Shown piece after piece: positions 920 to 26,494 of a stretch of DNA of 64,000 bases; position 1 is the first letter of the stretch; every line of letters starts with the position of its first letter. The stretch lies in assembly GCA_963781585.1 (NCBI GenBank), contig CAWAGQ010000006.1:224001-288000 (forward strand), given 5' to 3'. The position numbers and the translations under genes were made by a program. The notes below the pieces were generated by a model. The model was given only the letters and a program-made list of their open reading frames with translations. It did not search any database and was not told where the DNA came from. The DNA comes from an uncultured Gemmatimonadaceae bacterium (GTDB taxonomy: Bacteria; Gemmatimonadota; Gemmatimonadetes; Gemmatimonadales; Gemmatimonadaceae).

Positions 920-2674
920 TCAGACCAGCGTCGTCAGGTACTCAGGCGCCCGCCGAGCCCTGGTCGTCTGTTCGAACGCATACGCGAGCCTGAGCAGCGC
1001 CCCCTCGCTCCACGCCGGCCCGATGAACGAGAGCCCGCTCGGCAGGCCGTGGACGAGCCCCATCGGCACCGTGATGCTCGGATAGCCGGCCACCGCCGCG
1101 AAGGTCGTGTCGCCCCCCTTGAAGTGGTCGCCGTTGAGATAGTCGGTCGGCCACGCCGGCTGATTCGACGGCAAGACGATCGCATGAAGCCGGTTCTTCG
1201 CCAGTGCCGCATCGATGCCCTGAGCGCGCGACATGCGGACGCACTTCGCGCGCGCGGCCCTGTAGCGGGCGTCGGTGAGCGGCCCCTTTACCTGCGCCTG
1301 CTGGAACAGTTCCTGCCCGAACCACGGCATCTCGCGATCCTTCTCGCGCTCGTTCCACGCGATCAGCTCGGCGAGCGTCTTCACCGGCGCCGTGGCGCCG
1401 AGCGACGCGAGATACGCGTTCAGGCCGTCCTTGAATTCGTACAGCAGCACCTGCAGCTCATCGTCGTCGAACCGGTGCGCGCCGGCGAGGTTCGCGGGAT
1501 CGACCACCTCGGCGCCGGCGCCCTTCATCGCTGCTATTGCCTCGTCGAGCAGGTGGTCAACGTCGGGGTTGAAACCCGCCAGGTTGCGCGACACGCCGAT
1601 GCGCGCGCCCTTGAGGCCCGCGGGGTCGAGGAATCGCGTGTAGTCGGATTCCGTGTGGCCGGTGCTCGCGTTAGTGGCCGCGTCGCGCGGATCGGTGCCA
1701 ACCAGCGCGCCGAGCAGCGCGGCGACATCCGCGACCGAGCGGCACATCGGACCCGCCGTGTCCTGGGATGCGGAGATCGGGATGATCCCCGAGCGGCTCC
1801 AGAGACCCACGGTGGGTTTGAGTCCCACCAGCCCACACATCGACGACGGGCAGATGACAGACCCGTCGGTCTCGGTGCCGATTCCGATCGCAGCGAAATC
1901 GGCAGCGATCGCGGCAGCCGTTCCCGAGCTCGACCCGCACGGGTTGCGATCGAGGATGTATGGATTGTGGGTCTGCCCGCCGCGCCCGCTCCATCCGCTG
2001 GTGGAACGGGTGGAGCGGAAGTTCGCCCACTCGCTGAGATTCGTCTTTCCGAGCAGCACGGCGCCGGCGGCGCGCAGGCGGTCAACGATGAATGCGTCGT
2101 TCGGCGGCGTACTCGTCGCGAGCGCCAAGGATCCGGCCGAGGTGCGCATCTTGTCGGCCGAGTCGATGTTGTCCTTGATGAGGATGGGGATGCCGTGCAG
2201 CGGGCCGCGCACACGTCCGGCTTTGCGCTCGGCGTCGAGGGCGTCGGCGATGGTCCGCGCGTCGGGGTTGAGTTCGATCACTGCATTGACCGCGGGTCCG
2301 CGCTTGTCCATCGCGTCGATGCGGGTCAGGTAGCGATCGACGAGTGCGCGCGAGGTGAGCGAGCCCCGCTCCATGGCGGCGCGCAGGTCGGCGACGGATT
2401 GCTCGAAGAGGGCGTCGCGTTCAGGTACTCCGGCGGCGGGCGTCGGGCCGCGTCGCGACGCCGTGTCGCTGGCCCTGGTGGAGTCGCCTGTATCGCGCGC
2501 GAGCGTGGTGCAGGCGGTGCCGGTGCCGAGGACTATGGTGGCGCCGGCAGCGATGGAGCGGCCGACGAATGTACGGCGGTCCACGGGCGCCTGGCCCGGT
2601 TGGTGGTGGTCACTCTGGGAGCCGACCGCTGAGCGCTGAGTGCTGTTGGCTGCATGTCGGGGAGCGTCAGGCAT
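920..2674 (-). CDS. Amidase-signature family amidase with Tat signal/lipoprotein Cys
   Basis: DRRTFV Tat motif, GTAC, LHGIPILIKDN (Lys), GSSSG, GTETDGSVICPS. The ATG at 2674 is conserved in all three head copies. Confidence 0.93.
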   Translation of the reverse strand: MPDAPRHAANSTQRSAVGSQSDHHQPGQAPVDRRTFVGRSIAAGATIVLGTGTACTTLARDTGDSTRASDTASRRGPTPAAGVPERDALFEQSVADLRAAMERGSLTSRALVDRYLTRIDAMDKRGPAVNAVIELNPDARTIADALDAERKAGRVRGPLHGIPILIKDNIDSADKMRTSAGSLALATSTPPNDAFIVDRLRAAGAVLLGKTNLSEWANFRSTRSTSGWSGRGGQTHNPYILDRNPCGSSSGTAAAIAADFAAIGIGTETDGSVICPSSMCGLVGLKPTVGLWSRSGIIPISASQDTAGPMCRSVADVAALLGALVGTDPRDAATNASTGHTESDYTRFLDPAGLKGARIGVSRNLAGFNPDVDHLLDEAIAAMKGAGAEVVDPANLAGAHRFDDDELQVLLYEFKDGLNAYLASLGATAPVKTLAELIAWNEREKDREMPWFGQELFQQAQVKGPLTDARYRAARAKCVRMSRAQGIDAALAKNRLHAIVLPSNQPAWPTDYLNGDHFKGGDTTFAAVAGYPSITVPMGLVHGLPSGLSFIGPAWSEGALLRLAYAFEQTTRARRAPEYLTTLV

Positions 2675-3088
2675 CGGCGGATTGTGCGAAGGGTTGGACA
2701 AATGGGACGCCGGTGGAGGTACGGCGCTCGCGGGCGGGGGGGGGCGCCGCGCGCCTCTGACCGATCAGCGAACCCCTTGCGGCGGGCGAACACCAAAGTC
2801 GTCCACGACGCGGCAGCACGCCACCCTCGCGCTCGGCTGAGACACGTCGTGAGGACACGGGTCCGGAGCGCGTTAGCGCTCCCTTTCGCGTCGGTTTATC
2901 CCGGGAATCCGCGGAAATGTTACGTCATGTATCAGCGTTGCCCATGGCGTGTCGGTTGTTGCGTGTCTCGCGCCCCAGACTGGAAGCGTCCAAACAGGTC
3001 GAGCGAGGGACGGGCCGCTTCATTAATGAGGCGACGTCGTCGTTCGACGGCCTCGGCAGTTGCCGCAGTGGGCGATGGGAAGGCTCTG

Positions 3089-3910
3089 ATGTCGCAGTCA
3101 ATCCAAACGGCCGGTGCGGGTCGGCCGAAGGTGCTCGTCTTCTGCACGTCGGCGCCGATGGAGCGTGTGATTCGCGAGTCGCTGGCCGGGCAGTTCACGA
3201 TTCGCTCGACCGACAAGTGGAGCGACGTCGAAGCCGAGGCGGCGGCGAGCGCGTGTGTGGTGGCGGTGGTGCCCAGGTTGCGGCCGCCTGACATCGGAGA
3301 ACACCTTGAAGCGGTCAGGACCCATGCGCCGGAGACGCTGATTGTCGTGGTGACGACGAGGACCGCCGAGAATGCGGAGGCGATCCTGCGCATTCCGGTC
3401 GACGCGGTGGTGTGGGAGACGGCCGTACGCGAGCAGCTCCTGCCGGCGGTGGTTCGGGTTCTGGAACACTCGTACCTCGCCGTCGTCGCCCGGAACGCGT
3501 TACGCGAGGGGACGTTCGCACACGAGGTACGCATCGCGATCGCGGCCGCGTGCCGGAGTCATGCTCCCCCGTACTCGGTCGAGCGTTCGGCGATGGCCTG
3601 CGGGGTGCCACGGAGCACGCTGAATGCCGCGTGGAGGAAGGCGGGAGCGCCGCGCCTCAGTCCGAAGCTGTACCTCCGGTGGATTCGCCTGCTGCAGGCG
3701 GTGGCGTGGAAGACGGCTCAGCGCAGCTGGGAGTCGATCGCCGCCGAGCTGCACGTGGACGTGGACACCTTGGCGCGCGATGCGACGAAGGTCGCGGGTC
3801 TTCACCTCCGGGACCTCAGCGTCGAGACAATTGGCCTCCTTCGCGAGAAATTCGAGGACTCTGTGCTTCGTCCGCTGGGTATTCCGGCACCGCCAGCGAA
3901 AATGCGGTAA
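3089..3910 (+). CDS. Pseudo-receiver + AraC-like double-HTH transcriptional regulator (copy 1)
   Basis: N-terminal receiver-like pattern (KVLVF...CVVAVV...LIVVVT...VDAVVW) lacking the acceptor Asp; C-terminal SVERSAMACGVPRSTLNAAW and SWESIAAELHVDVDTLAR helices. Confidence 0.8.
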   Translation: MSQSIQTAGAGRPKVLVFCTSAPMERVIRESLAGQFTIRSTDKWSDVEAEAAASACVVAVVPRLRPPDIGEHLEAVRTHAPETLIVVVTTRTAENAEAILRIPVDAVVWETAVREQLLPAVVRVLEHSYLAVVARNALREGTFAHEVRIAIAAACRSHAPPYSVERSAMACGVPRSTLNAAWRKAGAPRLSPKLYLRWIRLLQAVAWKTAQRSWESIAAELHVDVDTLARDATKVAGLHLRDLSVETIGLLREKFEDSVLRPLGIPAPPAKMR

Positions 3911-3955
3911 AGCTGGCCAGTTTGCGGTTGACGGGTTGAGCCGGAATGCACGATG
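3903..3955 (+). promoter_or_regulatory. Putative AraC-type operator/promoter: TGCGGT-N14-TGCGGT, then TTGACG...CACGAT
   Basis: Direct repeat with 20-bp period overlapping the regulator stop codon; recurs at 9201, 15700 and 20110. Confidence 0.55.
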
Positions 3956-4181
3956 TTGGTGCTCGTTCGGGGACCCGCAGCCACGGATCATCTCGCTCAC
4001 CTGGCGAAAAGAAGAACCGTCTGCGGCACGTGCGGCCGGCCGGACCGAGCGTGGTACGATCGGGAGCGTCGCCGCGATTCTCCTATGAGAACGCGGAGCG
4101 CACCGATCGAAGTCGGCTAAAATCACCCACTCATTTCCCCGAAGAACCAGAAAGATTTCCCCTCCACCCAGGGAGAACCGG

Positions 4182-4478
4182 ATGCACTCCTTCAAGACCC
4201 CCTTCAAAATCGCATTGCTTGCGGCTGCACTCGTGGCGTCTCTGGCGATGTCGGGCACTCGCGTTCCGGCGCTACACGAAGAGAACGGGCTTCCAACCAA
4301 CGTGGACCAAGTCTGTCCGAAGCACGTGCCGGGCGCTTTGCCTCTGGCAAAGTGTGAGGATCCATGTCACTGTGTTGAGGACCGCTACCTCACTACATGT
4401 GCCACGCCGGACTTCAAGTGCGTCTGTGACGTGCAATCCGACGTGCAAGCCAAAGAGAACAAGAGCGCGCGGCACTAG
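4182..4478 (+). CDS. Small secreted Cys-rich protein/peptide precursor (98 aa, 7 Cys)
   Basis: GGAG RBS, hydrophobic signal peptide (KIALLAAALVASLA), Cys pattern C-x12-C-x3-C-x-C-x8-C-x6-C-x-C. Confidence 0.7.
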   Translation: MHSFKTPFKIALLAAALVASLAMSGTRVPALHEENGLPTNVDQVCPKHVPGALPLAKCEDPCHCVEDRYLTTCATPDFKCVCDVQSDVQAKENKSARH

Positions 4479-4628: not shown

Positions 4629-5804
4629 ATGTATGCACGTCTGTTGCGATGGATTGGCGGCGCGACTTGTGTCGTTGTGGTTGCTTCCGACGGGCTTTCT
4701 CTGCATCCTGCCCCGCAGCCACTCGATGCGTTGATCGCTCAACCAGAGCCTCTGTTGCAGGAGGCGACTTGGATCTTCTCGCGCCGCTCCGTGAAGGCGT
4801 TCGGTGGCGTTGGAGACTCTTCGTTCACGTTTGGGGTGATCGTCGGAGGTCAGATCATCGGCGACAGCACTATCGTCATTGCCGACGGGTCCAACGGATC
4901 CATTCACTACTTTTCCATGAACGGGGGGACTACGCGGAACTTCGGCCGTCTCGGCCCGGGACCGGGGGAATTCCAGGCGCTAACTGATGTGCATGAGTGC
5001 GAGCCCAGTACCTTGGCCACGTACGATGCCGCAACGGCCCGGATCACTAGGTTTGGTCCCGCCGGAGAGGTTCTCATCGAGAAGAGATCACCCGTCGGCT
5101 TTGTAATCTTGAGACCACTGACTTGTCTCGCCGACGGCTCGATTATCGCTGCCTTCGATCGCCGAGCGCCAATTCCCCAACAGTCGAGCGTTGTTCGCGC
5201 CACTGGACTGCTCGTCCGGATCTCCTCCGACCTTAGTGCCGTTGATACGCTGGCGACGTTTCCGGGAAACGAGCGCTACTTCGCAAACGAGGTTGGCGGA
5301 TATGGAGAACTTCCATTGGGGCGCTCTGGTGTCGTCGCCGCCGGCGCGCACTTCGCCGTGCTCGGTCAGACGGACTCAACTAGAATCCACATTCTACCCT
5401 TGGCAGGAGGGAGTGACCAACTCCTCGATCTTCCTCTCCGCCGTTATCCGGTAACCGCTGCGGCCTTTCGACGCGCCGTAGAACAGAGATTGGAGGACGA
5501 GCCAAGTCGACACACCCAAGACGTGCTGCGAGCCGTATACGCGCACGCGCCCCAACCAACCGGCAACAGGTTTCTTCGGGACCTCTTTGTGGACTCTGTT
5601 GACCGAATATGGGTGCAGACGCCTGCGCTGTCACGGCTCCGGGAGTCGATTTGGCGCGTCTTTGACGCAAGAGGACGTGACGTCGCGCGGGCACTGCTTC
5701 CCGAGACCGCGCGAGTACTCTTCGCCTCGGCTGATCATGTTCTCTTGAGAGTCACCGGCCCAGATGGCGATCAACACGTGGAACTTTTCCACATGCCTCC
5801 CTAG
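4629..5804 (+). CDS. Secreted 6-bladed beta-propeller protein (type A)
   Basis: FGRLGPGPGEF motif, LFVDSVDRIWV, C-terminal WRVFD..G...LP...DGDQHVELF; paralog of 18452-19582. Confidence 0.8.
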   Translation: MYARLLRWIGGATCVVVVASDGLSLHPAPQPLDALIAQPEPLLQEATWIFSRRSVKAFGGVGDSSFTFGVIVGGQIIGDSTIVIADGSNGSIHYFSMNGGTTRNFGRLGPGPGEFQALTDVHECEPSTLATYDAATARITRFGPAGEVLIEKRSPVGFVILRPLTCLADGSIIAAFDRRAPIPQQSSVVRATGLLVRISSDLSAVDTLATFPGNERYFANEVGGYGELPLGRSGVVAAGAHFAVLGQTDSTRIHILPLAGGSDQLLDLPLRRYPVTAAAFRRAVEQRLEDEPSRHTQDVLRAVYAHAPQPTGNRFLRDLFVDSVDRIWVQTPALSRLRESIWRVFDARGRDVARALLPETARVLFASADHVLLRVTGPDGDQHVELFHMPP

Positions 5805-5857: not shown

Positions 5858-5946
5858 TGCCGCCGGATACGCTTCTCATGCGCGTCGTGTCGGACCTGCT
5901 GACTGGGAAACGTCCGTTCGCCACGTCCCGCCAACCTCCGCCGTGA
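5858..5946 (+). pseudogene. 3' tip of a DsbA-like gene
   Basis: Near-identical to the end of the DsbA-like fragment at 24171-24259 (PPDTLLMRVVSDLL...QPPP*). Confidence 0.65.
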
Positions 5947-5977
5947 AAGGTCCGGGAGCCATGCTTCGATGTGATGT

Positions 5978-7168
5978 ATGGTAGGCGCAGCAGCCGCATG
6001 TATCGCACGGCTTGCGGCAGTAGGCCAGGCGCCTGATACCCGACTCGCGACGCGAACTCTCTGGTGGAGCGGACTGGCGACTCTGGTTGCGCCGGCCCTG
6101 TCACTGGCACAGCAGATCCCGCGCACGACGCTCGAACGCCGAGATGCCACGGTCGATTTTGCATTCAACCACATCGGTGGTTGCCGTGAACTAACGGACG
6201 GGCGCGTCCTGATCGGCGACGACTACGAGAGGACGCTCTATCTGATCGACTTTGCGGCCGGAAAGGCAACGGCTCTTGGTAGGTCCGGCTCGGGACCGGG
6301 AGAATTCGAATCGGTAAGCACGCTTCACTATATGGCGGACGATTCGACGCTTCTGGAAGACCGCCGACAAGGTCGCTGGCTGTACTTGCAGGGGCCCCGG
6401 GCGGTCGAAACGATCAACGCGATCACTCGTTTCGGGTACACGCCGACCCTTCACGGAGTGGACAGCATGGGGAGGTTCCTGGAGCTCCGACCTTCGCTGT
6501 ACGGCAAGTCTCCCGGCCTCCCCGCTTTGCGCATTCAATCGTCAGCAGAGTCGCTGCTGGTCATTGTCGGCCATCGGAGCGTTGCCTCCGCGGATACCTT
6601 GGGGCGGATCCGGGGTCAATTTCGAGGTGTCAGGGAGGTTATGAAACCGCTGGTCGCTGGTGGCCCGAGCGTTTCCAGAATAGTGGGCAACCCCTTGGCC
6701 GCGGAGGAACAGGCCATTCTGCTCCTGGATGGGTGGGCCGCGATCGTCTTCGCTGATCCATATCACGTCGAATGGATCACTCCGCGAAAGGTGAGGGTGC
6801 GCGGTCCGCCCCTTCCATTCCAACGAGTGCCGGTCGACGACGCGCAGAAACGGTATGCGGTAGAGATGAGCCGCGGTTACAGGGGTCTGTTTTCACCGGA
6901 CGAACTGCCCGCGTGGCCAGCCATCCTTCCTCCGTTTCTTAACGATGCAGTACTGGCCCTTCCAGATGGACGGATTGCCATTCGACGCACACCGGTGGCT
7001 GGTACGGGTGAGATCTTGTACGACATAGTGGACCGAAGGGGGCAGCTGACATCGCGAATCGCAGTATCGTCTGGTCAGAGATTAGTGGGATTCGGTAGAC
7101 ATGCCGCATATGTCGTGCATGAATCAGGTGACGACAGCGAACGCCTCGATCGCTATCACTGGCCGTAG
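5978..7168 (+). CDS. Secreted 6-bladed beta-propeller protein (type B, copy 1)
   Basis: RELTDGRVLIGD, LGRSGSGPGEF, PDGRIAIRRT, RLVGFGRHAAYVV..DDSERLDRY; exact start uncertain. Confidence 0.8.
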   Translation: MVGAAAACIARLAAVGQAPDTRLATRTLWWSGLATLVAPALSLAQQIPRTTLERRDATVDFAFNHIGGCRELTDGRVLIGDDYERTLYLIDFAAGKATALGRSGSGPGEFESVSTLHYMADDSTLLEDRRQGRWLYLQGPRAVETINAITRFGYTPTLHGVDSMGRFLELRPSLYGKSPGLPALRIQSSAESLLVIVGHRSVASADTLGRIRGQFRGVREVMKPLVAGGPSVSRIVGNPLAAEEQAILLLDGWAAIVFADPYHVEWITPRKVRVRGPPLPFQRVPVDDAQKRYAVEMSRGYRGLFSPDELPAWPAILPPFLNDAVLALPDGRIAIRRTPVAGTGEILYDIVDRRGQLTSRIAVSSGQRLVGFGRHAAYVVHESGDDSERLDRYHWP

Positions 7169-7362: not shown

Positions 7363-7970
7363 GCGGCGCGCAGGCGTTCGACGATAAACGCGTCCCTGGG
7401 CGGCGTGCTCGTCGCGAGCGCCAGCGATCCGGCCGAGGTGCGCATCCTGTCGGCCGAGTCGATGTTGTCCTTGATGAGGATGGGAATGCCGTGCAGCGGG
7501 CCGCGCACGTGTCCGGCTTTGCGCTCGGCGTCGAGGGCGTAGGCGATGGTACGCGCGTCGGGGTTGAGTTCGATCACTGCGTTGACCGCGGGGCCGCGCT
7601 TGTCCATGGCGTCGATGCGGGTCAGGTAGCGATCAACCAGCGCGCGCGAAGTGAGCGCACCGCGCTCCATGGCGGCGCGGAGGTTGGCGACGGATTGCTC
7701 GAACAGCGCGTCGCGCGCGGGAACGCCTGACGCCGGAACGGGGCCAGGTCGCGACGCCGTGTCGCTGGCCCTGGTGGAGTCGCCGGTATCGCGCGCGGGT
7801 GTGGTGCAGGCAGTGCCGGTGCCGAGGATAATGGTGGCGCCGGCAGCGATGGAGCGGCCGACGAAGGTGCGGCGGTCGACGGGAGCCTGGCCTGCGTGGT
7901 GGTCGTCACTCTGGGAGCTGACCGCTGATCGCTGATGGCTGTTGGCTGCATGTCGGGGAGCGTGAGGCAT
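7363..7970 (-). pseudogene. Amidase 5' fragment (copy 2), truncated after ...IVERLRAA
   Basis: Homologous to 2067-2674; keeps the Tat motif and IKDN, lacks the catalytic serines. Confidence 0.92.
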
Positions 7971-8386
7971 TGGCGTGTTGCGCGAAGGGTTGGACAACCA
8001 GGACGCCGGTGGCCGTGCGTGTTCCTGCGGGCGGGGGGGCGCCGCGCGCCTCTGACCGATCAGCCGAACCCCTTGCTGCGGGCGACACCAAACGTCGTCG
8101 ACGACGCGGCAGCACGCCACCCTCGTGCTCGCCTGAGACGCGAGGTGAGCACGCGGGTCCGGAGCGTCAGCGTTCCCTTTCGCGTCGGGTGATCCCGGAA
8201 CACCCGCGGAAATGTTACGTGGTGTATCGGCGTTGCCCATTGCGTGTCGGCTGTTGCTTGCCGAGCGCCCCAGACTGGAACGGTCCAATCAGGTCGCGTC
8301 GATGGGCGGGCGCCTTTCATTAGTGAGGCGACCGTCGTCCGTCGACGGCCTCGGCAGTGGCAGACTTGGGCGATGTGAAGGCGCAG

Positions 8387-9208
8387 ATGTCGCAGTCAAT
8401 CCAAAGCTCAGGTGCGGGTCGGCCGAAGGTGCTCGTCTTCTGCGCCTCCGCGCCGATGGCCGGTGCGATTCGCGAGGCGCTGGCCGGGCACTTCACGATT
8501 CGTGCGACCGACCAGTGGAGCGACGTCGAAGTCGAGGCGGCGGCGAGCGCGTGTGTGGTGGCGGTGGCGCCCAGGTTGCGGCTGCCTGACATCGGAGAAC
8601 ACCTTGAAACGGTCAGGACCCATGCGCCGGAGACGCTGATTGTCGTGGTGACGACGAGGACCGCCGAGAATGCGGAGGCGATCCCGAGCATTCCGGTCGA
8701 CGCGGTGGTCTGGGAGACGGCCGTACGCGAGCAGCTCCTGCCCGCGGTGGTTCGTGTAGTGGAACACTCGTACCTCGCCGTCGTCGCCCGGAACGCATTG
8801 CGCGAGGGGACGCTCGCACACGAGGTACGCATCGCGATCGCGGCCGCGTGCCGGAGTCATGCTCCACCGTACTCCGTCGAGCGTTTGGCGATGGCCTGCG
8901 GGGTGCCACGGAGCACGCTGAATGCCGCGTGGCGCAAGGCGGGAGCGCCGCGCCTCACGCCGAAGCTGTTCCTCCGGTGGATTCGCCTGCTGCATGCGGT
9001 GGCGGGGAAGACCGCTCAGCGCAGCTGGGAGTCGATCGCCGCCGAGCTCCACGCTGACGTGGACACCTTGGCGCGCGATGCGACGCGGGTCGCGGATCTT
9101 CATCTGAGGGACCTGAGTGTGGAGACGATCGACCTCGTTCGCGAGAAATTCGAGGACTCTGTGCTTCGGCCGCTGGGTATTCCGGCACCGCCAGCGAGAA
9201 TGCGGTAA
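8387..9208 (+). CDS. Pseudo-receiver + AraC-like regulator (copy 2)
   Basis: Paralog of 3089-3910, same length. Confidence 0.8.
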   Translation: MSQSIQSSGAGRPKVLVFCASAPMAGAIREALAGHFTIRATDQWSDVEVEAAASACVVAVAPRLRLPDIGEHLETVRTHAPETLIVVVTTRTAENAEAIPSIPVDAVVWETAVREQLLPAVVRVVEHSYLAVVARNALREGTLAHEVRIAIAAACRSHAPPYSVERLAMACGVPRSTLNAAWRKAGAPRLTPKLFLRWIRLLHAVAGKTAQRSWESIAAELHADVDTLARDATRVADLHLRDLSVETIDLVREKFEDSVLRPLGIPAPPARMR

Positions 9209-9512: not shown

Positions 9513-10436
9513 ATGAGACAACTGACCTACCGCGCGGCTGCAATGCCCTTCGTAGCGCTGCTAGCCGTAACGACGGGGTCGTGCTCAGATTCTGTATCAC
9601 GGTCAGTTAGCGAGCCATCACGGGTGTCGCTGCTCCAGAGTTCCGTCGTTGGAAATGCGGCGCGATCTGTCTCTGTGAATGGCAGCTTCCCTGTCGTATC
9701 TACGCAACTGAGTAGTCGGCCGGAAATCTCTGCGGAGCACGCTGCTTCCATTGCTGCCCTGTGGCTCAAGAGATTCAACGCGGCAGTGATCAAGCCGTTC
9801 GAACGGGATCGTGGAAGCCCCATCGCCATCAAGTCCCTACGAGCCTGCGGGCGGTACTTCTATGAGAATTCGGCTTACGAGCCGCCGTCGCCGGCGACGC
9901 CAGAATGGGTGCGGCGGGTGGCAGGAGCGCATTGGCTCATTCCGTTCTGCGCTGGGGCGGACCAGCAAATGTCTGTATCCGTCTCAGTTTACGCAGATGA
10001 CTCGTTCCGGCCCAGCGCGTCGGACGATCCGGACCCGCACGGGGTTGACTTCTTTGCTGTGGCCGTCCCAACGGGATTCGGAGCTCCTGCAGCGCCCGAG
10101 AACGTCACGATCTTCGTCGCCGCAAGAACAGGTCGGCGTATCCGCGAAATCCCCGAACTGGTATCGCGAGGTTATGGATCGGCGCCTCAGTTCGCCGTTT
10201 GGAGGGTCGTTCTTGATACCTCCGTAACCGTACGCGGGAACTCTACCGGCACCGATTACACGACGTCCGAGTTGTATGTTCGTATCGTTGACGGCTGGTC
10301 CCTAGCAATGTTCGCCGAGCGTCCGAGCGCTCAGCCTAACGAGACAGAGTATTTGCACTTGCATCCCTCCGTCATGCTGGTGCGCCGAGACCACGGCGCG
10401 CGCAACCTTGAGAGGGTGACAGTGGGGGAACAGTGA
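9513..10436 (+). CDS. Hypothetical lipoprotein
   Basis: GAGG RBS; signal MPFVALLAVTTGSC; lower-GC cargo composition. Confidence 0.7.
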   Translation: MRQLTYRAAAMPFVALLAVTTGSCSDSVSRSVSEPSRVSLLQSSVVGNAARSVSVNGSFPVVSTQLSSRPEISAEHAASIAALWLKRFNAAVIKPFERDRGSPIAIKSLRACGRYFYENSAYEPPSPATPEWVRRVAGAHWLIPFCAGADQQMSVSVSVYADDSFRPSASDDPDPHGVDFFAVAVPTGFGAPAAPENVTIFVAARTGRRIREIPELVSRGYGSAPQFAVWRVVLDTSVTVRGNSTGTDYTTSELYVRIVDGWSLAMFAERPSAQPNETEYLHLHPSVMLVRRDHGARNLERVTVGEQ

Positions 10437-13748: not shown

Positions 13749-13822
13749 GTCGCGGGTGAGTCGCAAACCCCCCGACGCCGCCAGGCGCTCTTCTCCCTCA
13801 AGCGGCAACATACAGGTTTCGT

Positions 13823-19582: not shown

Positions 19583-20117
19583 CGGCCCAGGCCCCGACTG
19601 TCCTCGCGGGCGCGGTGGTCTGGATGACGGCGATTCCGGAGCAGCTCTACCGTGCAGTGGTCCGCGCCCTCAAGCAGTCATGCCTGGAGGCCGTGGCCGG
19701 CAACGCGTTGCGCGCGGGTTCGCTCCCGCGGGACGTGCGGATCGCGATCGCCGCCGCGTGCAGGAGTCATGCTCCGGTGAACTCTGTGGAGCGCCTGGCG
19801 AAGGACTGCGGATTGTCCCCGGATACCTGTCCGGCGTCTGGAGAAGATCGGTATCGGGGAGCATCACTCCGAAGGCGTTCCTGCGGTGGATTCGATTGCT
19901 TCGCGCGGTGGCCCGGAAGACCCCGCAGCGAAGCTGGGAGTCCATCGCCGCGGAATTCGAGGTGGACGTGGACACGCTGTGGCGGGATGCGACGCAGGTG
20001 GCCGGGTTTCGGCTTCGTGACGTGAGCCTGGGAACGATCGAGGCGCTTCGCGACCGATTCCAGGATACGGTGCTCTATCTCCTGGGAATTGCTTCACCCC
20101 CGGCAAGAATGCGGTAA
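19583..20117 (+). pseudogene. AraC-like regulator copy 4 (5'-truncated, frameshift near 19820)
   Basis: AVVW...IAIAAACRSHAP...; TPKAFLRWIRLL...SWESIAAE...PPARMR*. Confidence 0.85.
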
Positions 20118-20499
20118 ACTCGCCGTCTTTGCGGTTCCGGAAGGATCGGGAAGGTACGATCGTGGTTCGCGCTTTGACGGGCGGGTGAGATCACGTCAGG
20201 TAATGCACGCCGGCGTTGAACCGTTGGTGGCGGACAGTCAGCGGCGGGAGGCAGGGACGAGCAACGATAGAATGTGCACTCACGACGATCAGGCCTGGCA
20301 CCTGCGTTGGCGCTATGGCACCTCGTACCTCCTGGATACCTCCACCTGGTGGGAGACCTCGAGGTCTGTGTAGTACGTGTAGTCTGGCGCCGTGAGGAGT
20401 GCACCATACGGGTCCGCCCAGTAGGCCGTGTACCTCCCGCATGGCAGTTGGACCCCGTCAATTGCCTGGCTCGTTATCTGGAAGGGCGCCGATGGCGGC

Positions 20500-20688: not shown

Positions 20689-21023
20689 GGAGACCCACTC
20701 TGGATAGGCCAAGCGAAATCATGATTAAGTGCATCTTGATACTCCCGGCGTGCGCTCTCGAACTTGCCGTTATCGGTAGCCATGGCGTGGTCGCGCCTCA
20801 AGTGCGTATTTCGCCACATCTCGTTCACCGATTTCGCTCCAAGCCGTTCACCCATTTCGGTCCAAGCCGTTCAGTCGTTTCGCTCCAAGCCGTTCGCTCA
20901 TTTCGGCCCATGCCGGTCACCCGTGCCGGTCCAAGGCGATCGGGCGTGATGCGATGAGTTGAGGGCCGCGGGATCCCGTCCACTGCCAGCGATCCTTCCG
21001 GGAACTCTTTCCGGAGCGACGCC

Positions 21024-22685
21024 GTGGCAGCTGTGAGGGTATCCATGCGGAAGGTCCTTGACGTCGTGCGGCTCCGCTTCGAGGCGGGCCGCAGCCAGCA
21101 TGAGATCGGGCTCGCCCTGGGGCTGGCGCAGAGCACCGTCGGCGAGTACCTGCGCCGCTTTCAGGCGAGCGGGCTCGCGTGGCCGCTCGCCGCGGACCTC
21201 GACGAGGCGGTGCTCGAGGCGCGGCTCTTTGCTCGTCCCGCTGCGCCGGCGGCCGAGGCGAGACCGCTCCCCGACTGGCCGACTGTTCACCGCGAGCTCC
21301 GGCGCAAGGGGGTGACGCTCCAGCTCCTGTGGCACGAGTACAAACAGGGCGAAGCGGACGGCGCGGCGTGCTATCAGTACACTCAGTTCTGCCGCCACTA
21401 CCACGCGTGGGCCGCCCAGCTCGATCCGGTGCTCCGGCAGCAGCACACAGCGGGCGAGCGCACCTTCGTGGACTATGCGGGCCAGACCATCGACGTCGTC
21501 GACACGACGACGGGCGAGGTCCGCGCGGCGCAGCTCTTCCTCGGCGTGCTCGGCGCAAGCAACTACTTCTTCGCGGAGGCAACGTGGACGCAGACGCTGC
21601 CGGACTGGATCGCGTCGCATGTGCGCATGGTCGAGTATTTCGGGGGCGTCAGCGCCTTGATCGTGCCCGACAATTTGCGGAGCGGCGTGACGCACGCCTC
21701 GTTCTACGAGCCGACCGTCAACGCGACCTATCAAGACTTCGCCACCCATTACGGCACGGCGATTCTACCCACGCGGGCCGCGCGGCCCCGCGACAAGGCG
21801 AAAGCGGAGTCGGGCGTGCTGGTCGCCGAGCGCTGGCTCCTGGCCCCCCTGCGCCATCACACCTTTACGTCGCTCGCGGAGCTCAATGGCGCGATTGCGC
21901 AGTTGCGGGAGGTTGCGAACGACCGGCCGTTCCAGAAGCTCGCCGGCTCGCGCCGCTCGCTCTTCGAGACGCTCGACCAACCGGCGCTCCGCCCGCTGCC
22001 CGCCACGCGCTACGAGCTGGCGGAATGGCGCACGGCGAAGGTGAACATCGATTATCACATCGCGGTCGACGGCCACTTCTATAGTGTGCCGTATGCCCTG
22101 GTGCGCGCGGCGGTCCGTGTCCGCCTCACCGCGTCGATGATCGAGGTGCTGCATGAGGGCAAGCGGGTGGCGACCCATGCGCGGAGCGCGCAGCGCGGGT
22201 GCTTCACGACCGAGCCCGCGCATCGGCCCAAGTCGCATCAGGCGCACCTCGAGTGGACGCCCTCCCGTCTGGTCCACTGGGGCGCCAGCATTGGCCCGTC
22301 GACCGGGGCGCTCGTGACGAGGATCCTCGAGCGCTGGCCGCATCCCGAGCAGGGGTACCGCGCGTGTCTCGGCCTCTTGTCCCTGCGCAAACGCTACCCC
22401 GACGCGCGGCTGGAAGCCGCGTGTGTCCGCGCGCTCACCACCGGCGCGACGAGTTACAAGTCGGTGAAGTCGATCCTCGCCGCCGGGCTCGATCAGGTCG
22501 CCCCGGAGGAGCCACCACCCCTGCGGCTGCCGGCGACGCACGCCCACATCCGCGGCGCCGACTACTACGCCGACTCCCCGGCTCCGGAGTCCGCGCTGGA
22601 ACTCCCCCGGTCGTCTTCGGCCTCCTTGTCCTCCTCCTCCTCCTCCTCCTCCTCCTCCTCTACGTCTGGAGACCGCTCATGCTGA
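21024..22685 (+). CDS. istA: IS21 transposase IstA
   Basis: HTH N-terminus, FVDYAG, VPDNLRSGV, PRDKAKAE; poly-Ser (TCC)n tail. Confidence 0.95.
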   Translation: MAAVRVSMRKVLDVVRLRFEAGRSQHEIGLALGLAQSTVGEYLRRFQASGLAWPLAADLDEAVLEARLFARPAAPAAEARPLPDWPTVHRELRRKGVTLQLLWHEYKQGEADGAACYQYTQFCRHYHAWAAQLDPVLRQQHTAGERTFVDYAGQTIDVVDTTTGEVRAAQLFLGVLGASNYFFAEATWTQTLPDWIASHVRMVEYFGGVSALIVPDNLRSGVTHASFYEPTVNATYQDFATHYGTAILPTRAARPRDKAKAESGVLVAERWLLAPLRHHTFTSLAELNGAIAQLREVANDRPFQKLAGSRRSLFETLDQPALRPLPATRYELAEWRTAKVNIDYHIAVDGHFYSVPYALVRAAVRVRLTASMIEVLHEGKRVATHARSAQRGCFTTEPAHRPKSHQAHLEWTPSRLVHWGASIGPSTGALVTRILERWPHPEQGYRACLGLLSLRKRYPDARLEAACVRALTTGATSYKSVKSILAAGLDQVAPEEPPPLRLPATHAHIRGADYYADSPAPESALELPRSSSASLSSSSSSSSSSSTSGDRSC

Positions 22686-23434
22686 TGCAACAAACGCTCG
22701 ACCTCCTGCACACGCTGCGGCTCCCCGGAATGGCCCAAGCGCTCGAAGAACAGCAGGGTGTGCCGGATCTCGCGAGTCTCGCTTTTGAAGACCGCCTCGC
22801 GCTCCTCCTTGAACGGGAGCGCCTCGGCCGCGACGATCGGCGACTCACGCGGCTGCTCCAGATCGCACGCTTTCGCGAGGCGGCCTGTCTGGAGGACGTG
22901 AACTTCCGCGTGAAGCGCGGCCTCGACCGGAACATCTTCCTCCGGCTCGGTACCGGCGACTGGATCCGGCACCATGACGTGATTCTCATGGTCGGTCCCA
23001 CTGGAACGGGGAAGACCTGGCTGGCCTGTGCGCTCGGCCACAGTGCGTGCCGCCAAGGGCACGTGGTCCGCTACGTCCGTCTGCCGCGACTCCTCAGCGA
23101 GCTGGCGATTGCGCGCGGTGATGGATCGTACGGACGGCTCCTGCAACAACTCGCCAAGACCGACCTGCTCATCCTGGATGACTGGGGGCTCGCCCCGCTC
23201 GGCGATCGCGAACGCCGCGATCTCCTCGAAGTGATCGAAGATCGATCCGGTCGGCGCTCGACTCTCGTAACCAGCCAAGTGCCCGTGGACCACTGGCACG
23301 AACTCGTCGGCGACGCCACGTTTGGCGACGCCATCCTCGATCGCCTCGTCCATCACGCGCACCGCATCACGCTGACCGGAGGCTCGCTCCGGAAACTCAA
23401 ACCGGCCCAGGCCGTGTCCCCTACCACCGAATAA
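22679..23434 (+). CDS. istB: IS21 helper ATPase IstB
   Basis: GPTGTGKT, LLILDDWG, AILDRLVH. Confidence 0.96.
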   Translation: MLMQQTLDLLHTLRLPGMAQALEEQQGVPDLASLAFEDRLALLLERERLGRDDRRLTRLLQIARFREAACLEDVNFRVKRGLDRNIFLRLGTGDWIRHHDVILMVGPTGTGKTWLACALGHSACRQGHVVRYVRLPRLLSELAIARGDGSYGRLLQQLAKTDLLILDDWGLAPLGDRERRDLLEVIEDRSGRRSTLVTSQVPVDHWHELVGDATFGDAILDRLVHHAHRITLTGGSLRKLKPAQAVSPTTE

Positions 23435-24010
23435 CCGTGACTCCACCGATCCCGTGTCTCTCCGCTCGTCGCTGAACGCGATCGTCCGAACCCCGTGAAC
23501 GCTTTGGAGCGAAACGGCTGACCGGCTTCACGCGAAACGCGTGACCGACTTGAGCGAAATACGCATCAAGGTGGCGGCGCATGGTTTGAGCTCACAGGGC
23601 GCGGTCCAGTCACTGTAGAAGTGGACACGAGCTGGCTGCCGATTGACAGTGTGGGAGTGCGGTTTCAGATGAGAGTCACCTACAGGGACCGCAGCTTGTT
23701 CCGCACTTCGTCGAGGGCGGACACGGGGTCAGTAGGGATACGTCCCTTGGCGAGGAGTACCGTACAGCGGATTAGTGAGCACTATGTCGACTGCGGCCAC
23801 CAGCGAATCCGACTGGTGCGACTGGTTGAGGTCGATTCCGCGGGCAGTGCCGTAGTTGAGCGGGCAGGAGCCGTCGACCGCTGGGAACCGTTCGGGGCCT
23901 TCTTCGGATCTATCGCGACCCCTTCCTTCTGTATGCGCTAGAGTTCGCGCGAGGTAGCTATCTCATGATCTGGGCTTGACCTGATGTTGCCTTGACAACG
24001 TGGATGCCCA

Positions 24011-24259
24011 GTTGCCGTCGAGGCCGGCATCTCGGACATCGTGGCGTTTCAGCGCTGTGCCGCGGACTCCGTGTCGGTTCCTCGCATTGAGGCCGGCGTT
24101 GCAGCGGCCAACAGGCTCGGAATAACGTCCACACCGACAGTGATTGTTAACGGGTGGCGCTTCATGACGATGCCGCCGGATACGCTTCTCATGCGCGTTG
24201 TGTCGGATTTGCTGATTGGGAAACGTCCGTTCGCCACGTCCGGCCAACCTCCGCCGTGA
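24011..24259 (+). pseudogene. DsbA-family C-terminal fragment (CxxC part missing)
   Basis: AGISDIVAFQRC...LGITSTPTVIVNG. Confidence 0.75.
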
Positions 24260-24290
24260 AGGGTCCGGGAGCCATGCTTCGATGTGATGT

Positions 24291-25481
24291 ATGGTAGGCG
24301 CAACAGCCGCATGTGGCGAACGGCTTGCGGCAGTAGGCCCGTCGCCTGATACCCGGCGCGCGATGCGACCTCTCTTGTGGAGCGCATTCGCGACTCTCGC
24401 TGCGCCGGCGCTGTCACTGGCACAGCAGATCCCGCGCACGACGCTCGAACGCCGAGATGCCACGGTCGATTTTGCATTCAACCACATCCATGGTTGCCGT
24501 GAACTATCGGACGGGCGTGTCCTGATCGGCGACGACTACGAGAGGACGCTCTATCTGATCGACTTTGCGGCCGGAAGGGCAACGGCTCTTGGCAGGTCCG
24601 GCTCGGGACCGGGAGAATTCGAATCGGTAAGCGCGCTTCACCTTATGGCAGGCGATTCGACGCTTCTGGAAGACCGCCGGCAAGGTCGCTGGCTGTACTT
24701 GCAGGGGCCCCGGGCGGTCGAAACGATCAACGCGATCACTCGTTTCGGGTACACCCCGACCCTTCACGGAGTGGACAGCATGGGGAGGTTCCTGGAGCTC
24801 CGACCTTCGCTGTATGGCAAGTCTCCCGGCCTCCCCGCTTTGCGCATTCAATCGTCAGCAGAGTCGCTGCTGGTCATTGTCGGCCATCGGAGCGGAGCCT
24901 CCGCGGATACCTTGGGGCGGATACGGGGTCAATTTCGAGGTGTCAGGGAGGTCATGAAACCGCTGGTCGCTGGTGGCCCGAGCGTTTCCAGAATAGTGGG
25001 CAACCCCTTGGCCGAGGAGGAACAGGCCATTCTGCTCCTGGATGGGTGGGCCGCGATCATCTTCGCTGATCCATATCACGTCGAATGGATCACTCCGCGA
25101 AAGGTGAGGGTGCGCGGTCCCCCCCTTCCATTCCAACGAGTGCTGGTCGACGACGCGCAGAAGCGGTACGCGGTAGAGATGAGCCGCGGTTACCGGGGTC
25201 AGTTTTCACCGCACGAACTGCCCGGGTGGCCAGCCATCCTTCCTCCGTTCCTGAACGATGCAGTTCTTGCCCTTCCGGATGGACGAATTGCCATTCGGCG
25301 CACACCGGTGGCTGGTGCGGGTGAGATATTGTATGACATAGTGGACCGCAGCGGGCGGCTGACGTCCCGAATTGCTGTGTCGCCTCGTCAGCGAATAGTG
25401 GGATTCGGTCCGCGTGCAGCATATGTCGTGAGTGAATCAGGTGACGACAGCGAACGCCTCGATCGTTATCAGTGGCCGTAG
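24291..25481 (+). CDS. Secreted 6-bladed beta-propeller protein (type B, copy 2)
   Basis: Near-duplicate of 5978-7168; alternative start at ATG 24363. Confidence 0.8.
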   Translation: MVGATAACGERLAAVGPSPDTRRAMRPLLWSAFATLAAPALSLAQQIPRTTLERRDATVDFAFNHIHGCRELSDGRVLIGDDYERTLYLIDFAAGRATALGRSGSGPGEFESVSALHLMAGDSTLLEDRRQGRWLYLQGPRAVETINAITRFGYTPTLHGVDSMGRFLELRPSLYGKSPGLPALRIQSSAESLLVIVGHRSGASADTLGRIRGQFRGVREVMKPLVAGGPSVSRIVGNPLAEEEQAILLLDGWAAIIFADPYHVEWITPRKVRVRGPPLPFQRVLVDDAQKRYAVEMSRGYRGQFSPHELPGWPAILPPFLNDAVLALPDGRIAIRRTPVAGAGEILYDIVDRSGRLTSRIAVSPRQRIVGFGPRAAYVVSESGDDSERLDRYQWP

Positions 25482-25693
25482 CCCGGAGGTGGCGGTGTAT
25501 GTCCCGAAGTTGGTTGATAATCGGGTGGGTGCCTGGCTAACGAATGCTGCGCAGTGTTGTCGCCGGCCGGTGCACCCCAAGGGATCTTGCCCGGCCCACC
25601 GGCGACCGCCAGTTTGAACAAGATACGGTTCCTCTGGGACGCGGAATGTCGACGGCGCAGGCGCGCATTCGTCCGTTACGAGGCGGAGTGCCG

Positions 25694-26494
25694 ATGCCGT
25701 GGACCCTCGGGAAACAGGTGGTTGGCGCGCTATGCCTGGCGGCGTCAATCTGCGCGCTCTCCTCCACCGCCAAGGCTCAGCGCAGCGGGATCGTCCTGAG
25801 CGTCGTGGTTCGGGATGCCGACACCGGTGAACCCGTGGCAGGCGCAGAAGTGACAGTGCGAGATGCAAACCTGCAGTCGCGCACTGACTCACTCGGCCGC
25901 GTGGTCTTCTCGAACGTCCCGACACCCTCGGGTTCCATCGACGTGCGGCGCCTTGGGTACGCGTCGCTCGAGACCACGTTTCGCTCAGCCGAACGTGATA
26001 CGGTGCGGCTGATGGTCCGGCTGGAACCGGTCGCGCAGGCCCTGCCGCGTGCATCCGTCGTTGATACCGAAGGTCTGTCGCGGCTTCCCGAATTCGAGTC
26101 GAGACACGGAAAGCGGTTTGGCCGGTTCATCACCGAGAAGGAGATCCGTGCCGCTCTCGGTAGTACGCTGTCTGACCTGGTCATGACGAAGATCCCTGGC
26201 CTGCGCATCAGCTACGTTCCCGGATTTGGCGCGAAGGCATATAGCACTCGTGGACCTCGGTCGATCCATGTGGATCTATGCCAGGTGGCGGTCTACCTGG
26301 ATGGCGTCCGGGTGTCTAATGGAGTCGTCGATCTGGTCGCGCTCAGCCTACTGGCTGGCGTGGAGTACTACCCGCCCGGGTTCGTGCCCGTCCAGTACAA
26401 AGTTCTGGGTGCAGCGCCCGGCATGGGGCGCATCCCTTCGGAGGAAGGCGGGAGCGCGGAGTGCGGGGTGCTGCTGCTCTGGACGATCCGCTGA
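25694..26494 (+). CDS. Carboxypeptidase-regulatory-like + TonB-plug-like protein without barrel
   Basis: VRDADTGEPVAGAEV, TDSLGR, VRRLGY; CQVAVYLDG...LAGVEYY...CGVLLLWT. Confidence 0.75.
   Translation: MPWTLGKQVVGALCLAASICALSSTAKAQRSGIVLSVVVRDADTGEPVAGAEVTVRDANLQSRTDSLGRVVFSNVPTPSGSIDVRRLGYASLETTFRSAERDTVRLMVRLEPVAQALPRASVVDTEGLSRLPEFESRHGKRFGRFITEKEIRAALGSTLSDLVMTKIPGLRISYVPGFGAKAYSTRGPRSIHVDLCQVAVYLDGVRVSNGVVDLVALSLLAGVEYYPPGFVPVQYKVLGAAPGMGRIPSEEGGSAECGVLLLWTIR

What the first reader, a model, noticed from the sequence alone, without database searches (positions are those of the whole stretch)
920..26494. Tandem cassette array anchored on an amidase gene, with no integrase visible: [amidase 5' - AraC-like regulator - promoter] head + interchangeable secreted-protein cargo
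Seen: one full amidase is followed by cargo 1, a displaced amidase 5' fragment (7363), cargo 2, another 5' fragment (13823), cargo 3, a fourth partial regulator (19583) and cargo 4. All heads are direct repeats but diverged, so they look like alleles rather than fresh duplications. The two fragments break at different points (equivalent to 2067 and 2015), and no integrase, att core or IR is visible. Known: islands that integrate into a gene and supply a replacement end leave displaced gene fragments, and homology-facilitated illegitimate recombination joins a homologous anchor on one side to an arbitrary junction on the other. Inference: successive imports of this locus from relatives were added next to the intact amidase, newest first. 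This would build an integron-like array in which each cassette brings its own regulator and promoter.
Basis: partly seen in the sequence, partly recalled or inferred. Interest (0 to 1): 0.85.

Follow-up and report, generated by a model that had tools for sequence, protein, structure and literature searches.

The report
Stacked sister-species versions of one locus
Three versions of one variable gene slot, each taken from a closely related bacterium and each keeping its own regulator and secreted-protein cargo, sit head to tail behind an amidase gene; this looks like the scar of a known kind of imprecise recombination, though a sequence-assembly artefact is not yet excluded.

Summary
The array is in the contig. 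Three ~1.9-kb heads (amidase 5' part, divergent pseudo-receiver/HTH regulator, conserved downstream box) are 84-90% identical and precede unrelated secreted-protein cargo. The displaced amidase pieces break at positions equivalent to 2067 and 2015, share no att core, and differ from the intact gene like sister-species orthologues (dS 0.29-0.45; dN/dS 0.05-0.11 in the enzyme part; background 0.34 and 0.115). They are therefore foreign alleles, not decayed local duplicates. No recombinase gene was found on this contig. Corrections: the 'fourth head' is a permuted piece of a paralogous unit on contig C10; the cargo holds an intact IS21 and three IS remnants; 'newest first' is untested. A congener carries different cargo of the same kind in this slot, and similar displaced fragments occur at other loci of the bin. 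Best reading (0.5): additive capture of congeneric alleles by homologous anchor plus illegitimate junction, as proposed for Rhs/T6SS orphan arrays. Main rival (0.25): a long-read assembler concatenated haplotypes; the bin mixes two lineages at ~89% identity and no reads could be obtained. This scan has noted similar stacked alleles in several other genomes. New variant of a known kind.

The parts
86..902 (+). ChaN-family gene, left flank; its frame has no stop until 2632 and runs antisense into the amidase
   Evidence: PF04187; 89.5% to C2:238578-239473; stop search
920..2701 (-). Intact amidase (anchor), with N-terminal leader/linker
   Evidence: PF01425, NF006006 above cut-off; its 3' end is also the last ~37 bases of sister contig C2
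3089..3910 (+). Regulator 1: receiver-fold domain without the usual acidic residues plus double helix-turn-helix
   Evidence: model pLDDT 93; Foldseek top hits response regulators, best E 4.8e-4; HTH_AraC in 10 of 81 family members
3911..3965 (+). Conserved box closing each head, with a TTGACG hexamer; putative activator-dependent promoter (inferred)
   Evidence: 93-95% identical in H1-H3; not found by sigma-70 scan
3966..4076 (+). ISL3-like remnant
   Evidence: 72% to C7:325795-325904, the 5' part of an ISL3-type frame (family name from my reading of the translation)
4182..4478 (+). Cargo 1: small secreted-looking cysteine-rich protein (98 aa, 7 Cys)
   Evidence: 87% identical homologue P0159 in another assembly
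4629..5804 (+). Cargo 1: propeller-type protein A (family label inferred)
   Evidence: no Pfam hit; 43% to 18221-19582, many paralogues in the bin
5858..5947 (+). 3' remnant of a DsbA-like gene
   Evidence: start of the 93% repeat with 24171-25528; DsbA label from my reading of the translation
5978..7168 (+). Cargo 1: propeller-type protein B
   Evidence: 91% aa to 24291-25481; 1 of 36 homologues carries PF17170
7217..7362 (.). Junction 1 filler, 146 bp, origin unknown
   Evidence: no significant match in the bin or in 150 family genomes; not homologous to the amidase (p 0.33 and 1.0)
7363..7997 (-). Displaced amidase 5' allele 2, in frame to the break (equivalent to 2067)
   Evidence: dS 0.32, dN/dS 0.17 (0.11 in enzyme part) against the intact gene
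8387..9208 (+). Regulator 2, intact
   Evidence: 89% aa to regulator 1
9513..10436 (+). Cargo 2: lipoprotein-like protein, no family
10600..11073 (-). IS256/Mutator transposase remnant
   Evidence: PF00872 E 7e-26, profile 131-263 of 379
11166..13044 (+). Cargo 2: two proteins of no family (11166-12023; ORF 11869-13044)
   Evidence: partial paralogues on C3 and just upstream of ChaN
13199..13748 (+). Cargo 2: carboxypeptidase-regulatory-like plus TonB-plug gene with internal deletion and frameshift
13749..13822 (.). Junction 2 filler, 74 bp; weak likeness to the spacer behind the cargo-4 plug gene
   Evidence: p 0.038 against random genome segments, one of five filler tests
13823..14496 (-). 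Displaced amidase 5' allele 3, in frame apart from a 1-base loss at the break (equivalent to 2015)
   Evidence: dS 0.45, dN/dS 0.18 (0.05 in enzyme part)
14886..15707 (+). Regulator 3, intact
   Evidence: 75% aa to regulator 1
15786..16344 (+). IS5-type remnant directly behind head 3
   Evidence: PF05598; 67% nt to full copies on C7 and C11
16185..19582 (+). Cargo 3: possible peptidase-A4-like secreted protein (ORF 16185-17636), glycine-zipper protein (17735-18202), propeller-type protein A' (18221-19582)
   Evidence: atlas lead of 0.79 only for peptidase A4
19600..20274 (+). 3' part of a paralogous (C10-type) regulator, frameshifted, plus its downstream 157 bp
   Evidence: 85.5% to C10:276078-276753, 71% to heads 1-3; 79-83% aa to P0004
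20278..20469 (-). 3' piece of the gene that opens the C10 unit, joined in permuted order
   Evidence: 95.4% to C10:274445-274638
20803..23565 (+). Intact IS21 (istA, istB) with TCAAG target duplication
   Evidence: NF033546, PF01695; 99.96% to a copy on C8; ends
23990..26494 (+). Cargo 4: DsbA-like 3' remnant, propeller-type protein B' (24291-25481), carboxypeptidase-regulatory-like plus plug gene (ORF 25544-26494)
   Evidence: plug gene 75.5% nt to the gene at the same place in congener G001
26563..27622 (-). Nucleotidyltransferase antitoxin-like gene and partner, right flank
   Evidence: PF01909, weak NF047752; 91% to G001:C6:228036-228872

Best explanation
The slot between the amidase and the toxin-antitoxin-like pair is a variable island whose normal single form is amidase - regulator - secreted cargo - plug gene. 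At least twice, a version of this slot from a sister lineage was added instead of swapped in: incoming DNA paired with the conserved amidase body, and its far end was joined illegitimately to the resident amidase near codon 212-229, so that the incoming 5' end completed the amidase and the resident 5' end, regulator and cargo were pushed outwards. A circle of donor DNA rescued by one crossover gives the same product and cannot be told apart here. IS insertions, deletions and exchange between heads then eroded and mixed the units. Shown: layout, foreign-allele character of the heads, mosaicism, absence of a local recombinase and att core, variability of the slot in a congener. Inferred: that the junctions are real, the recombination route, the order of events, and expression of the cargos.
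For: Displaced amidase pieces diverged under purifying selection and to the depth of sister-lineage orthologues (dS 0.29-0.45, dN/dS 0.05-0.11 in the enzyme part; 186 orthologue pairs: median dS 0.34, dN/dS 0.115). Breaks differ and fillers share nothing. No recombinase match on C6. Sister contig C2 keeps ChaN ... amidase 3' end; congener G001 keeps plug gene - right flank with different cargo (cysteine-rich peptide, DsbA-like, propeller-type). Heads are mosaics: 133 runs among 345 informative sites against 211 in shuffles, none of 10000 as low; heads 2 and 3 match at 459 of 466 aligned bases in one tract. A fourth unit with an amidase 5' remnant (135 bp, 92.6% to head 3), regulator and peptide cargo lies on C10 as a 6.3-kb insertion at a site that is empty in G001; haplotype concatenation at the amidase locus cannot explain it. 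Displaced, diverged flank fragments occur at other loci: C5 (transporter 3' piece, 85%, fused to a regulator piece over a short GC-rich overlap, with sister C8 collinear on both sides), C11 (permease 3' piece, 86.8%, inside a 15-kb block absent from G001), C8 (decayed peptidase piece, 89%). Truncated IS pieces, an internal deletion and an IS21 target duplication show real history inside the units. ComEC is present. The same mechanism is proposed for T6SS immunity arrays and Rhs orphans (PMC5361080, passages).
Against: No read or second assembly spans either junction: no run listed, regulators 2 and 3 and the truncated amidase are single-member clusters from this contig, scans of metagenome, genome and viral collections found no related locus. 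The bin mixes two lineages and is indel-prone (0.05-0.31 frame-breaking indels per kb). Each unit spans almost the whole island, as concatenated haplotypes would. The two breaks lie only 52 bp apart (about 6% chance if uniform along the amidase), which 'arbitrary junction' does not predict. Thirteen breakpoints show no overall GC or hairpin enrichment (mean ranks 0.56 and 0.55). Donor ends are unknown, so microhomology at the two array junctions could not be tested. Only 3 of 53 lineage-specific gaps of 800 bp or more carry a flank copy at 85% or more (6 flagged in all). ComEC rings in 10 of 14 control genomes, so it is weak support.
Confidence: 0.5

Rival explanations
1. Assembly artefact: a long-read assembler concatenated the variable slot of several co-occurring strains or congeners into one contig.
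For: Bin has 7.19% contamination and ~0.6 Mb aligned twice at 87-90%; head divergence equals sister-lineage divergence; both sister-type contigs (C2, G001:C6) end inside this slot; concatenation of subpopulation-specific variable regions is a described error (bioRxiv 10.1101/2025.04.22.649783, passages); no reads available.
Against: It needs three further congeneric haplotypes besides the one seen in G001, whose cargo matches none of the four. It does not explain the C10 unit, the permuted C10 piece inside cargo 3/4, or the IS-filled and decayed displaced fragments at C11 and C8. The assembler kept 89%-identical lineages apart over 225 kb. The frameshift test was uninformative (P 0.56).
Confidence: 0.25
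2. IS- or HUH-assisted capture: transposases acting in trans cut out or circularise head-plus-cargo units, which re-enter by homologous recombination, as in ISCR1 complex integrons.
For: IS remnants sit directly behind heads 1 and 3 and inside cargo 2; intact IS21 in cargo 4; the permuted C10 piece looks like a circle or tandem junction; the C10 unit is ectopic; circle rescue builds repeated arrays in ISCR1 integrons (PMC7707992, passages); an earlier, unchecked note reports an IS91-type element in this genome (e1-7737010).
Against: No IS end or common terminal sequence at either junction; no transposase in any head; a hairpin overlaps the 2015 break (rank 0.08) but not breakpoints in general.
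Confidence: 0.1
3. Old tandem duplication in place, followed by cargo replacement and refreshing of the heads by homologous recombination with incoming alleles.
For: Would explain the closeness of the two breaks (one ancestral junction, later trimmed) and the near-identical tract of heads 2 and 3.
Against: Fragments show no neutral decay, and the two fillers are unrelated; both amidase pieces would have had to be fully overwritten recently.
Confidence: 0.09
4. Site-specific accretion of integrative elements that target the amidase 5' region and have lost their integrase (CIME-like).
For: Displaced gene fragments and integrase-less tandems are known from such elements (PMC4383910, PMC5704250, passages); breaks cluster within 52 bp.
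Against: No shared core at the breaks, no integrase or remnant in any unit or on C6; a 1.9-kb duplicated head including a second gene is far longer than att identity blocks (recalled); the units are versions of the resident locus.
Confidence: 0.06

Closest known systems
Orphan-module arrays at T6SS effector-immunity and Rhs/CDI loci, attributed to homology-facilitated illegitimate recombination (PMC5361080, passages seen)
   Same: Conserved upstream anchor, foreign module inserted next to it, older modules pushed downstream, members come from different strains rather than duplication, no integrase, integron analogy already drawn.
   Different: Here the anchor is a divergently transcribed metabolic gene, so each displaced unit keeps a whole regulator and putative promoter; units are 5-13 kb whole-island versions; the cargo is not a known toxin-immunity system; only one assembly shows it.
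Homology-facilitated illegitimate recombination in transformation (Acinetobacter, Streptococcus, Pseudomonas; seen through PMC2884548 passages; the primary papers were not held)
   Same: One homologous end, one non-homologous end, no dedicated enzyme.
   Different: Experiments mostly yield replacement or insertion-deletion (recalled); here the product is additive with a long diverged duplication, and microhomology could not be tested.
Replacement and additive flexible genomic islands (PMC4898812, PMC5644125, passages seen)
   Same: Same position, conserved flanks, different cargo of similar kind in congeners.
   Different: Several alternative versions are stacked; additive islands in those papers sit at tRNA genes or integrons.
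ISCR1 complex class 1 integrons (PMC7707992, passages seen)
   Same: Repeated partial copies of a flank with cargo between, built by circle rescue through homologous recombination.
   Different: No HUH transposase or ori end in the units.
Integrase-made islands with displaced target fragment, tandem accretion and CIMEs (PMC4383910, PMC5704250, passages seen)
   Same: Intact target gene plus displaced fragments marking unit ends.
   Different: No integrase, no fixed crossover core, protein gene with 0.6-0.7 kb displaced coding piece.
Transformation-induced merodiploids in S. pneumoniae (PMC3784515, abstract and section 9 seen)
   Same: Tandem copies arising from incoming DNA and unequal crossing-over.
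   Different: Those need pre-existing repeats and duplicate the cell's own allele; here copies are foreign alleles with different cargo.

Membership tests
Integron | Integron integrase next to the array | tested here: not met
   No PF00589 match on C6; only sister contig C2 has a short integrase C-terminal remnant after ChaN
Integron | attC site closing each cassette | tested here: not met
   Simple RYYYAAC-N35..140-GTTRRRY scan gave one self-complementary match inside a cargo gene, none at unit ends; no covariance model was run
Site-specific island / CIME | Shared att core at a fixed crossover | tested here: not met
   Breaks at 2015 and 2067, unrelated fillers
Site-specific island / CIME | Tyrosine or large serine recombinase in or near a unit | tested here: not met
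   PF00589 none on C6, PF07508 none in the bin; bin 93.5% complete; PF00239 not searched
HFIR-type displacement array | Conserved homologous anchor shared by donors and recipient | tested here: met
   Amidase at this place in C6 and sister contig C2; heads 84-90%
HFIR-type displacement array | Modules are foreign alleles, not local duplicates | tested here: met
   dS and dN/dS equal to sister-lineage orthologues; also expected under an assembly chimera
HFIR-type displacement array | Non-homologous junction, often with short GC-rich microhomology (feature recalled) | tested here: inconclusive
   Junctions are non-homologous; donor ends unknown; break 2067 lies in a 90% GC window, break 2015 does not
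HFIR-type displacement array | Junctions exist in single DNA molecules | not testable with these tools
   No sequencing run was listed
HFIR-type displacement array | DNA uptake route in the host | tested here: inconclusive
   ComEC present, but also in 10 of 14 controls; competence not shown
ISCR-type complex integron | HUH transposase and oriIS in each repeated unit | tested here: not met
   None among 29 ORFs scanned with Pfam; no common end at junctions
Replacement flexible genomic island | Same site, conserved flanks, different cargo in relatives | tested here: met
   G001:C6 right flank 89-92% with different cargo; one congener only, contig ends inside the slot
AraC/XylS family (regulator) | HTH_18/HTH_AraC domain above cut-off | tested here: not met
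   No Pfam hit for regulator 1; weak hits in 10-11 of 81 relatives; SoxS at E 0.097; fold has two HTH units behind a receiver-like domain

The most novel reading that the evidence does not exclude
This lineage routinely gains genes by integrase-free additive capture of whole loci from sister species, and the amidase slot is a selected, working stack in which three complete regulator-plus-secreted-cargo cassettes are expressed side by side and re-assorted with a mobile paralogous unit (C10), giving an integron-like collector whose cassettes bring their own switch.
Probability: 0.15. Interest if true: 0.75.

Novelty: new variant of a known kind. Interest (0 to 1): 0.42.

Why it matters
If reads confirm it, this is an unusually legible natural record of additive recombination between species about 89% identical: donors, breakpoints and selection history can all be read, in a soil phylum with almost no genetics. 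It extends displacement arrays from toxin-immunity loci to whole regulated cassettes, and it concerns a cargo class (cysteine-rich exported peptides, DsbA-like oxidases, propeller-type and plug-only proteins under a pseudo-receiver regulator) whose function is unknown. If reads refute it, it is a clear example of haplotype concatenation in a public long-read genome, and a warning for scans that read such contigs.

Tried and rejected
Read evidence: one run search, none was listed, so no reads could be laid; this is no evidence either way. Related loci: none with the regulator or its alignment in metagenome, genome or viral contigs, none with a promoter-box pattern. Family genomes: 8 of 250 matched regulator 1 at E<=1e-8, best 41% identity; 92 of 400 matched the family profile at E<=1e-15, at most 6 candidates scored per genome, and the only same-contig pair outside G000 closer than 10 kb was a weak one in G099; none of the 11 loci checked by tblastn had the amidase beside the regulator. 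Truncated amidase 3 as a query found no close relative outside this contig (best 73% over 59%). My early reading that the sister lineage lacks the amidase was wrong: C2 ends in the amidase 3' end. Shared breakpoint hidden in filler 1: rejected (p 0.33). Hairpin- or GC-directed breakage: no enrichment over 13 breakpoints. Frameshift density as a chimera test: uninformative. tRNA/tmRNA anchor: none in the window. The abundant octamer noted by earlier agents is rare in the array (1 seen, 6.5 expected) and does not mark junctions. Atlas searches on two cargo proteins gave no firm function. No tree was built: three alleles and no assembled sister amidase give no usable topology. Literature: 10 searches; none listed a paper on such an array in Gemmatimonadota, but most subscription papers are not held, and the two primary HFIR papers could not be read. 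No supplements were consulted.

Full report
Observation. Self-BLAST of the window gives three direct copies of a ~1.9-kb head: 2015/2053-3965, 7363-9269 and 13823-15768, 84-90% identical. Each holds the 5' part of the amidase (minus strand), the intergenic region, an intact regulator and a 55-bp conserved box; homology stops at the same point behind the box. The displaced pieces stop at positions equivalent to 2067 and 2015 and are preceded by unrelated fillers of 146 and 74 bp. The cargos are mostly secreted-looking proteins without Pfam or NCBIfam family, apart from carboxypeptidase-regulatory-like/plug genes. The regulator folds as a receiver-like domain plus two helix-turn-helix units (pLDDT 93); its alignment shows no acidic phospho-acceptor residues by my reading, and AraC profiles hit only 10-11 of 81 relatives weakly.

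Corrections. The piece at 19600-20274 is 71% identical to the three heads but 85% to a regulator on contig C10, and it is followed directly by 190 bp that lie 1.6 kb upstream of that regulator on C10, a permuted order typical of a circle or tandem junction. The cargo is full of IS material: an ISL3-like remnant behind head 1, an IS256 remnant in cargo 2, an IS5 remnant behind head 3 and an intact IS21 with a TCAAG target duplication. Cargos share a template: propeller-type genes of cargo 1 and 4 are 93% identical and both follow a DsbA-like remnant; cargos 2 and 4 both end in a plug gene.

Genomic setting. Names given to amidase homologues and atlas taxa and earlier notes point to Gemmatimonadota. 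The bin is 93.5% complete, 7.19% contaminated and holds two lineages: C2/C6, C5/C8 and C11/C17 align over about 0.6 Mb at 87-90%, with 0.05-0.31 frame-breaking indels per kb. Sister contig C2 runs ChaN, an integrase remnant, two cassette-like genes with attC-like spacers, an IS, and ends 37 bases into the amidase 3' end. The congener G001 shares the right flank (89-92%), preceded by a plug allele (75.5%) and different cargo: a cysteine-rich peptide, a DsbA-like gene and a propeller-type gene; its contig ends there. So the slot is a replacement-type variable island, and each unit of the array is close to one whole version of it.

The heads are foreign alleles. Against the intact amidase, the two displaced pieces have dS 0.32 and 0.45 and dN/dS 0.17-0.18 (0.11 and 0.05 in the enzyme part), with most changes at third codon positions; 186 orthologue pairs between the sister lineages have median dS 0.34 and dN/dS 0.115. 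Local duplicates decaying to this distance would approach dN/dS 1 and carry stops. The heads are also mosaics (133 runs among 345 informative sites against a mean of 211 in 10000 shuffles); heads 2 and 3 match at 459 of 466 bases over the promoter and regulator start, heads 1 and 2 at 94-97% over the regulator middle. This result separates import from local duplication, but not import from assembly chimera.

No site-specific system. PF00589 has 11 matches in the bin, none on C6; PF07508 has none. No tRNA or tmRNA lies in the window, no attC-like pattern at unit ends, and the only long inverted repeats found within 3 kb belong to IS21. Breakpoints across 13 junctions are not enriched for hairpins or GC.

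The pattern recurs in the bin. On C10 a 6.3-kb block carries a 135-bp amidase 5' remnant (92.6% to head 3), a diverged copy of the intergenic region, a paralogous regulator, three cysteine-rich peptides, a DsbA-like and a propeller-type gene; the site is empty in G001. On C5 a transporter 3' piece (85%, dN/dS 0.17 against the C8 gene) is fused to a regulator 5' piece over a short GC-rich overlap, while sister C8 is collinear on both sides without it. On C11 a permease 3' piece (86.8%, dN/dS 0.28) and a peptidase 3' piece (98.7%) flank an IS-rich stretch inside a 15-kb block missing from G001. On C8 a decayed peptidase piece (89%) follows an IS21. In a systematic count, 6 of 53 lineage-specific gaps of 800 bp or more matched their flanks, 3 of them at 85% or more. 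Two proteins of another assembly, a C10-type regulator (P0004) and a cargo-1-type peptide (P0159, 87%), are each recorded on a contig of 3416 bp; I infer one contig, which would show heads and cargos re-assorted, but could not see the DNA.

Mechanism. The simplest biological route is additive recombination: pairing in the conserved amidase body, then an illegitimate join of the donor's far end to the resident amidase, or rescue of a donor circle by one crossover. Either leaves an intact amidase with a foreign 5' end and pushes the previous head and cargo outward. This is the model proposed for Vibrio T6SS immunity arrays and Rhs orphans, with the same integron analogy (PMC5361080, passages; HFIR as summarised in PMC2884548, passages). 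What differs here is that the anchor is transcribed away from the cargo, so each displaced unit keeps its regulator and putative promoter. The order of events is not established: neither displaced piece shows decay, although cargo 3/4 is the most broken. The 52-bp closeness of the two breaks (about 6% by chance) is unexplained and could mean a hotspot, a common ancestral junction or an alignment artefact.

Main rival. Long-read assemblers are known to concatenate subpopulation-specific variable regions between conserved flanks (bioRxiv 10.1101/2025.04.22.649783, passages). The mixed bin, the matching divergence and the whole-island size of the units fit that. Against it: three extra haplotypes are needed, the assembler kept the 89% lineages apart elsewhere, and the C10, C11 and C8 cases are not of that form. 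No run was listed and no second assembly holds these heads, so this stays open at about 0.25.

Papers seen: passages of PMC5361080, PMC2884548, PMC13344027, PMC5704250, PMC5644125, PMC4898812, PMC4383910, PMC7707992 and the bioRxiv preprint; abstract, section 9 and passages of PMC3784515; abstract and outline of PMC2568036; no supplements. Labels 'DsbA-like', 'ISL3-like', 'propeller-type', 'EamA-type transporter', 'M61' and 'S9 peptidase' rest on my reading of translations and recall, except that 1 of 36 homologues of propeller B carries PF17170. Earlier notes of this scan describe the same cargo class elsewhere in this genome and stacked alleles in at least eight other genomes; they are unchecked and lowered my novelty estimate only through the paper they led me to.

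Verdict. Real in the contig, probably real in the organism (about 0.7), best read as a new and unusually complete variant of displacement arrays built by homology-assisted illegitimate recombination; interest 0.42.

Noticed in passing
G000 whole bin: C2~C6:1-225 kb, C5~C8, C11~C17: The bin mixes two lineages at 87-90% identity over about 0.6 Mb; G001 lacks orthologues of the C2/C6 and C5/C8 stretches tested. Paralogue claims in this genome need care.
   Followed up: partly
window 86-919: ChaN has no in-frame stop until 2632 and abuts the amidase end; the sister copy on C2 stops soon after this point. Real junction or indel error.
   Followed up: partly
G000:C2:239475-244240 (L002): Between ChaN and the amidase the sister lineage has an integron-integrase C-terminal remnant, two cassette-like genes with attC-like spacers and an IS whose copies in G001 are 100% identical.
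   Followed up: partly
G000:C10:274420-280720 (L003): 6.3-kb insertion with amidase 5' remnant, frameshifted regulator, three paralogous 8-Cys-type secreted peptides, DsbA-like and propeller-type genes; empty site in G001:C16 lies among short TGGCCTA-type repeats.
   Followed up: yes
G000:C7:212442-226366 against G001:C14 (L043): A 14-kb island with a distant regulator paralogue is 96.5% identical between the two genomes while its flanks are 81-91%: recent exchange between lineages or shared binning.
   Followed up: no
G000:C9:128000-155565 (L078, L079): Another tandem region of regulator, cysteine-rich peptide, propeller-type and plug genes with repeats at 76-91%.
   Followed up: partly
G000:C5:133899-142449 and C11:224368-239372: Further lineage-specific blocks with displaced, diverged 3' pieces of neighbouring genes.
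   Followed up: yes
window 27640-29190: The di-haem cytochrome c peroxidase gene (27862-29091) is absent at the same place in G001, where the flanks are about 150 bp apart.
   Followed up: no
window 29171-30740: The xylulokinase-like gene is frameshifted here but intact (508 aa) in G001, probably a consensus error.
   Followed up: no
window 38679-40178: A second amidase paralogue (66% nt, inverted) lies 12 kb beyond the array; it is conserved in G001 and is not a head.
   Followed up: partly
window 35788-35875 and 40200-40256: A short dispersed repeat with many copies in G001 and an inverted copy in the window.
   Followed up: no
G000 whole bin: The octamer reported by earlier agents occurs 1442 times (2.5 per 10 kb) but once in the 25.6-kb array, consistent with foreign or fast-turnover DNA.
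   Followed up: partly
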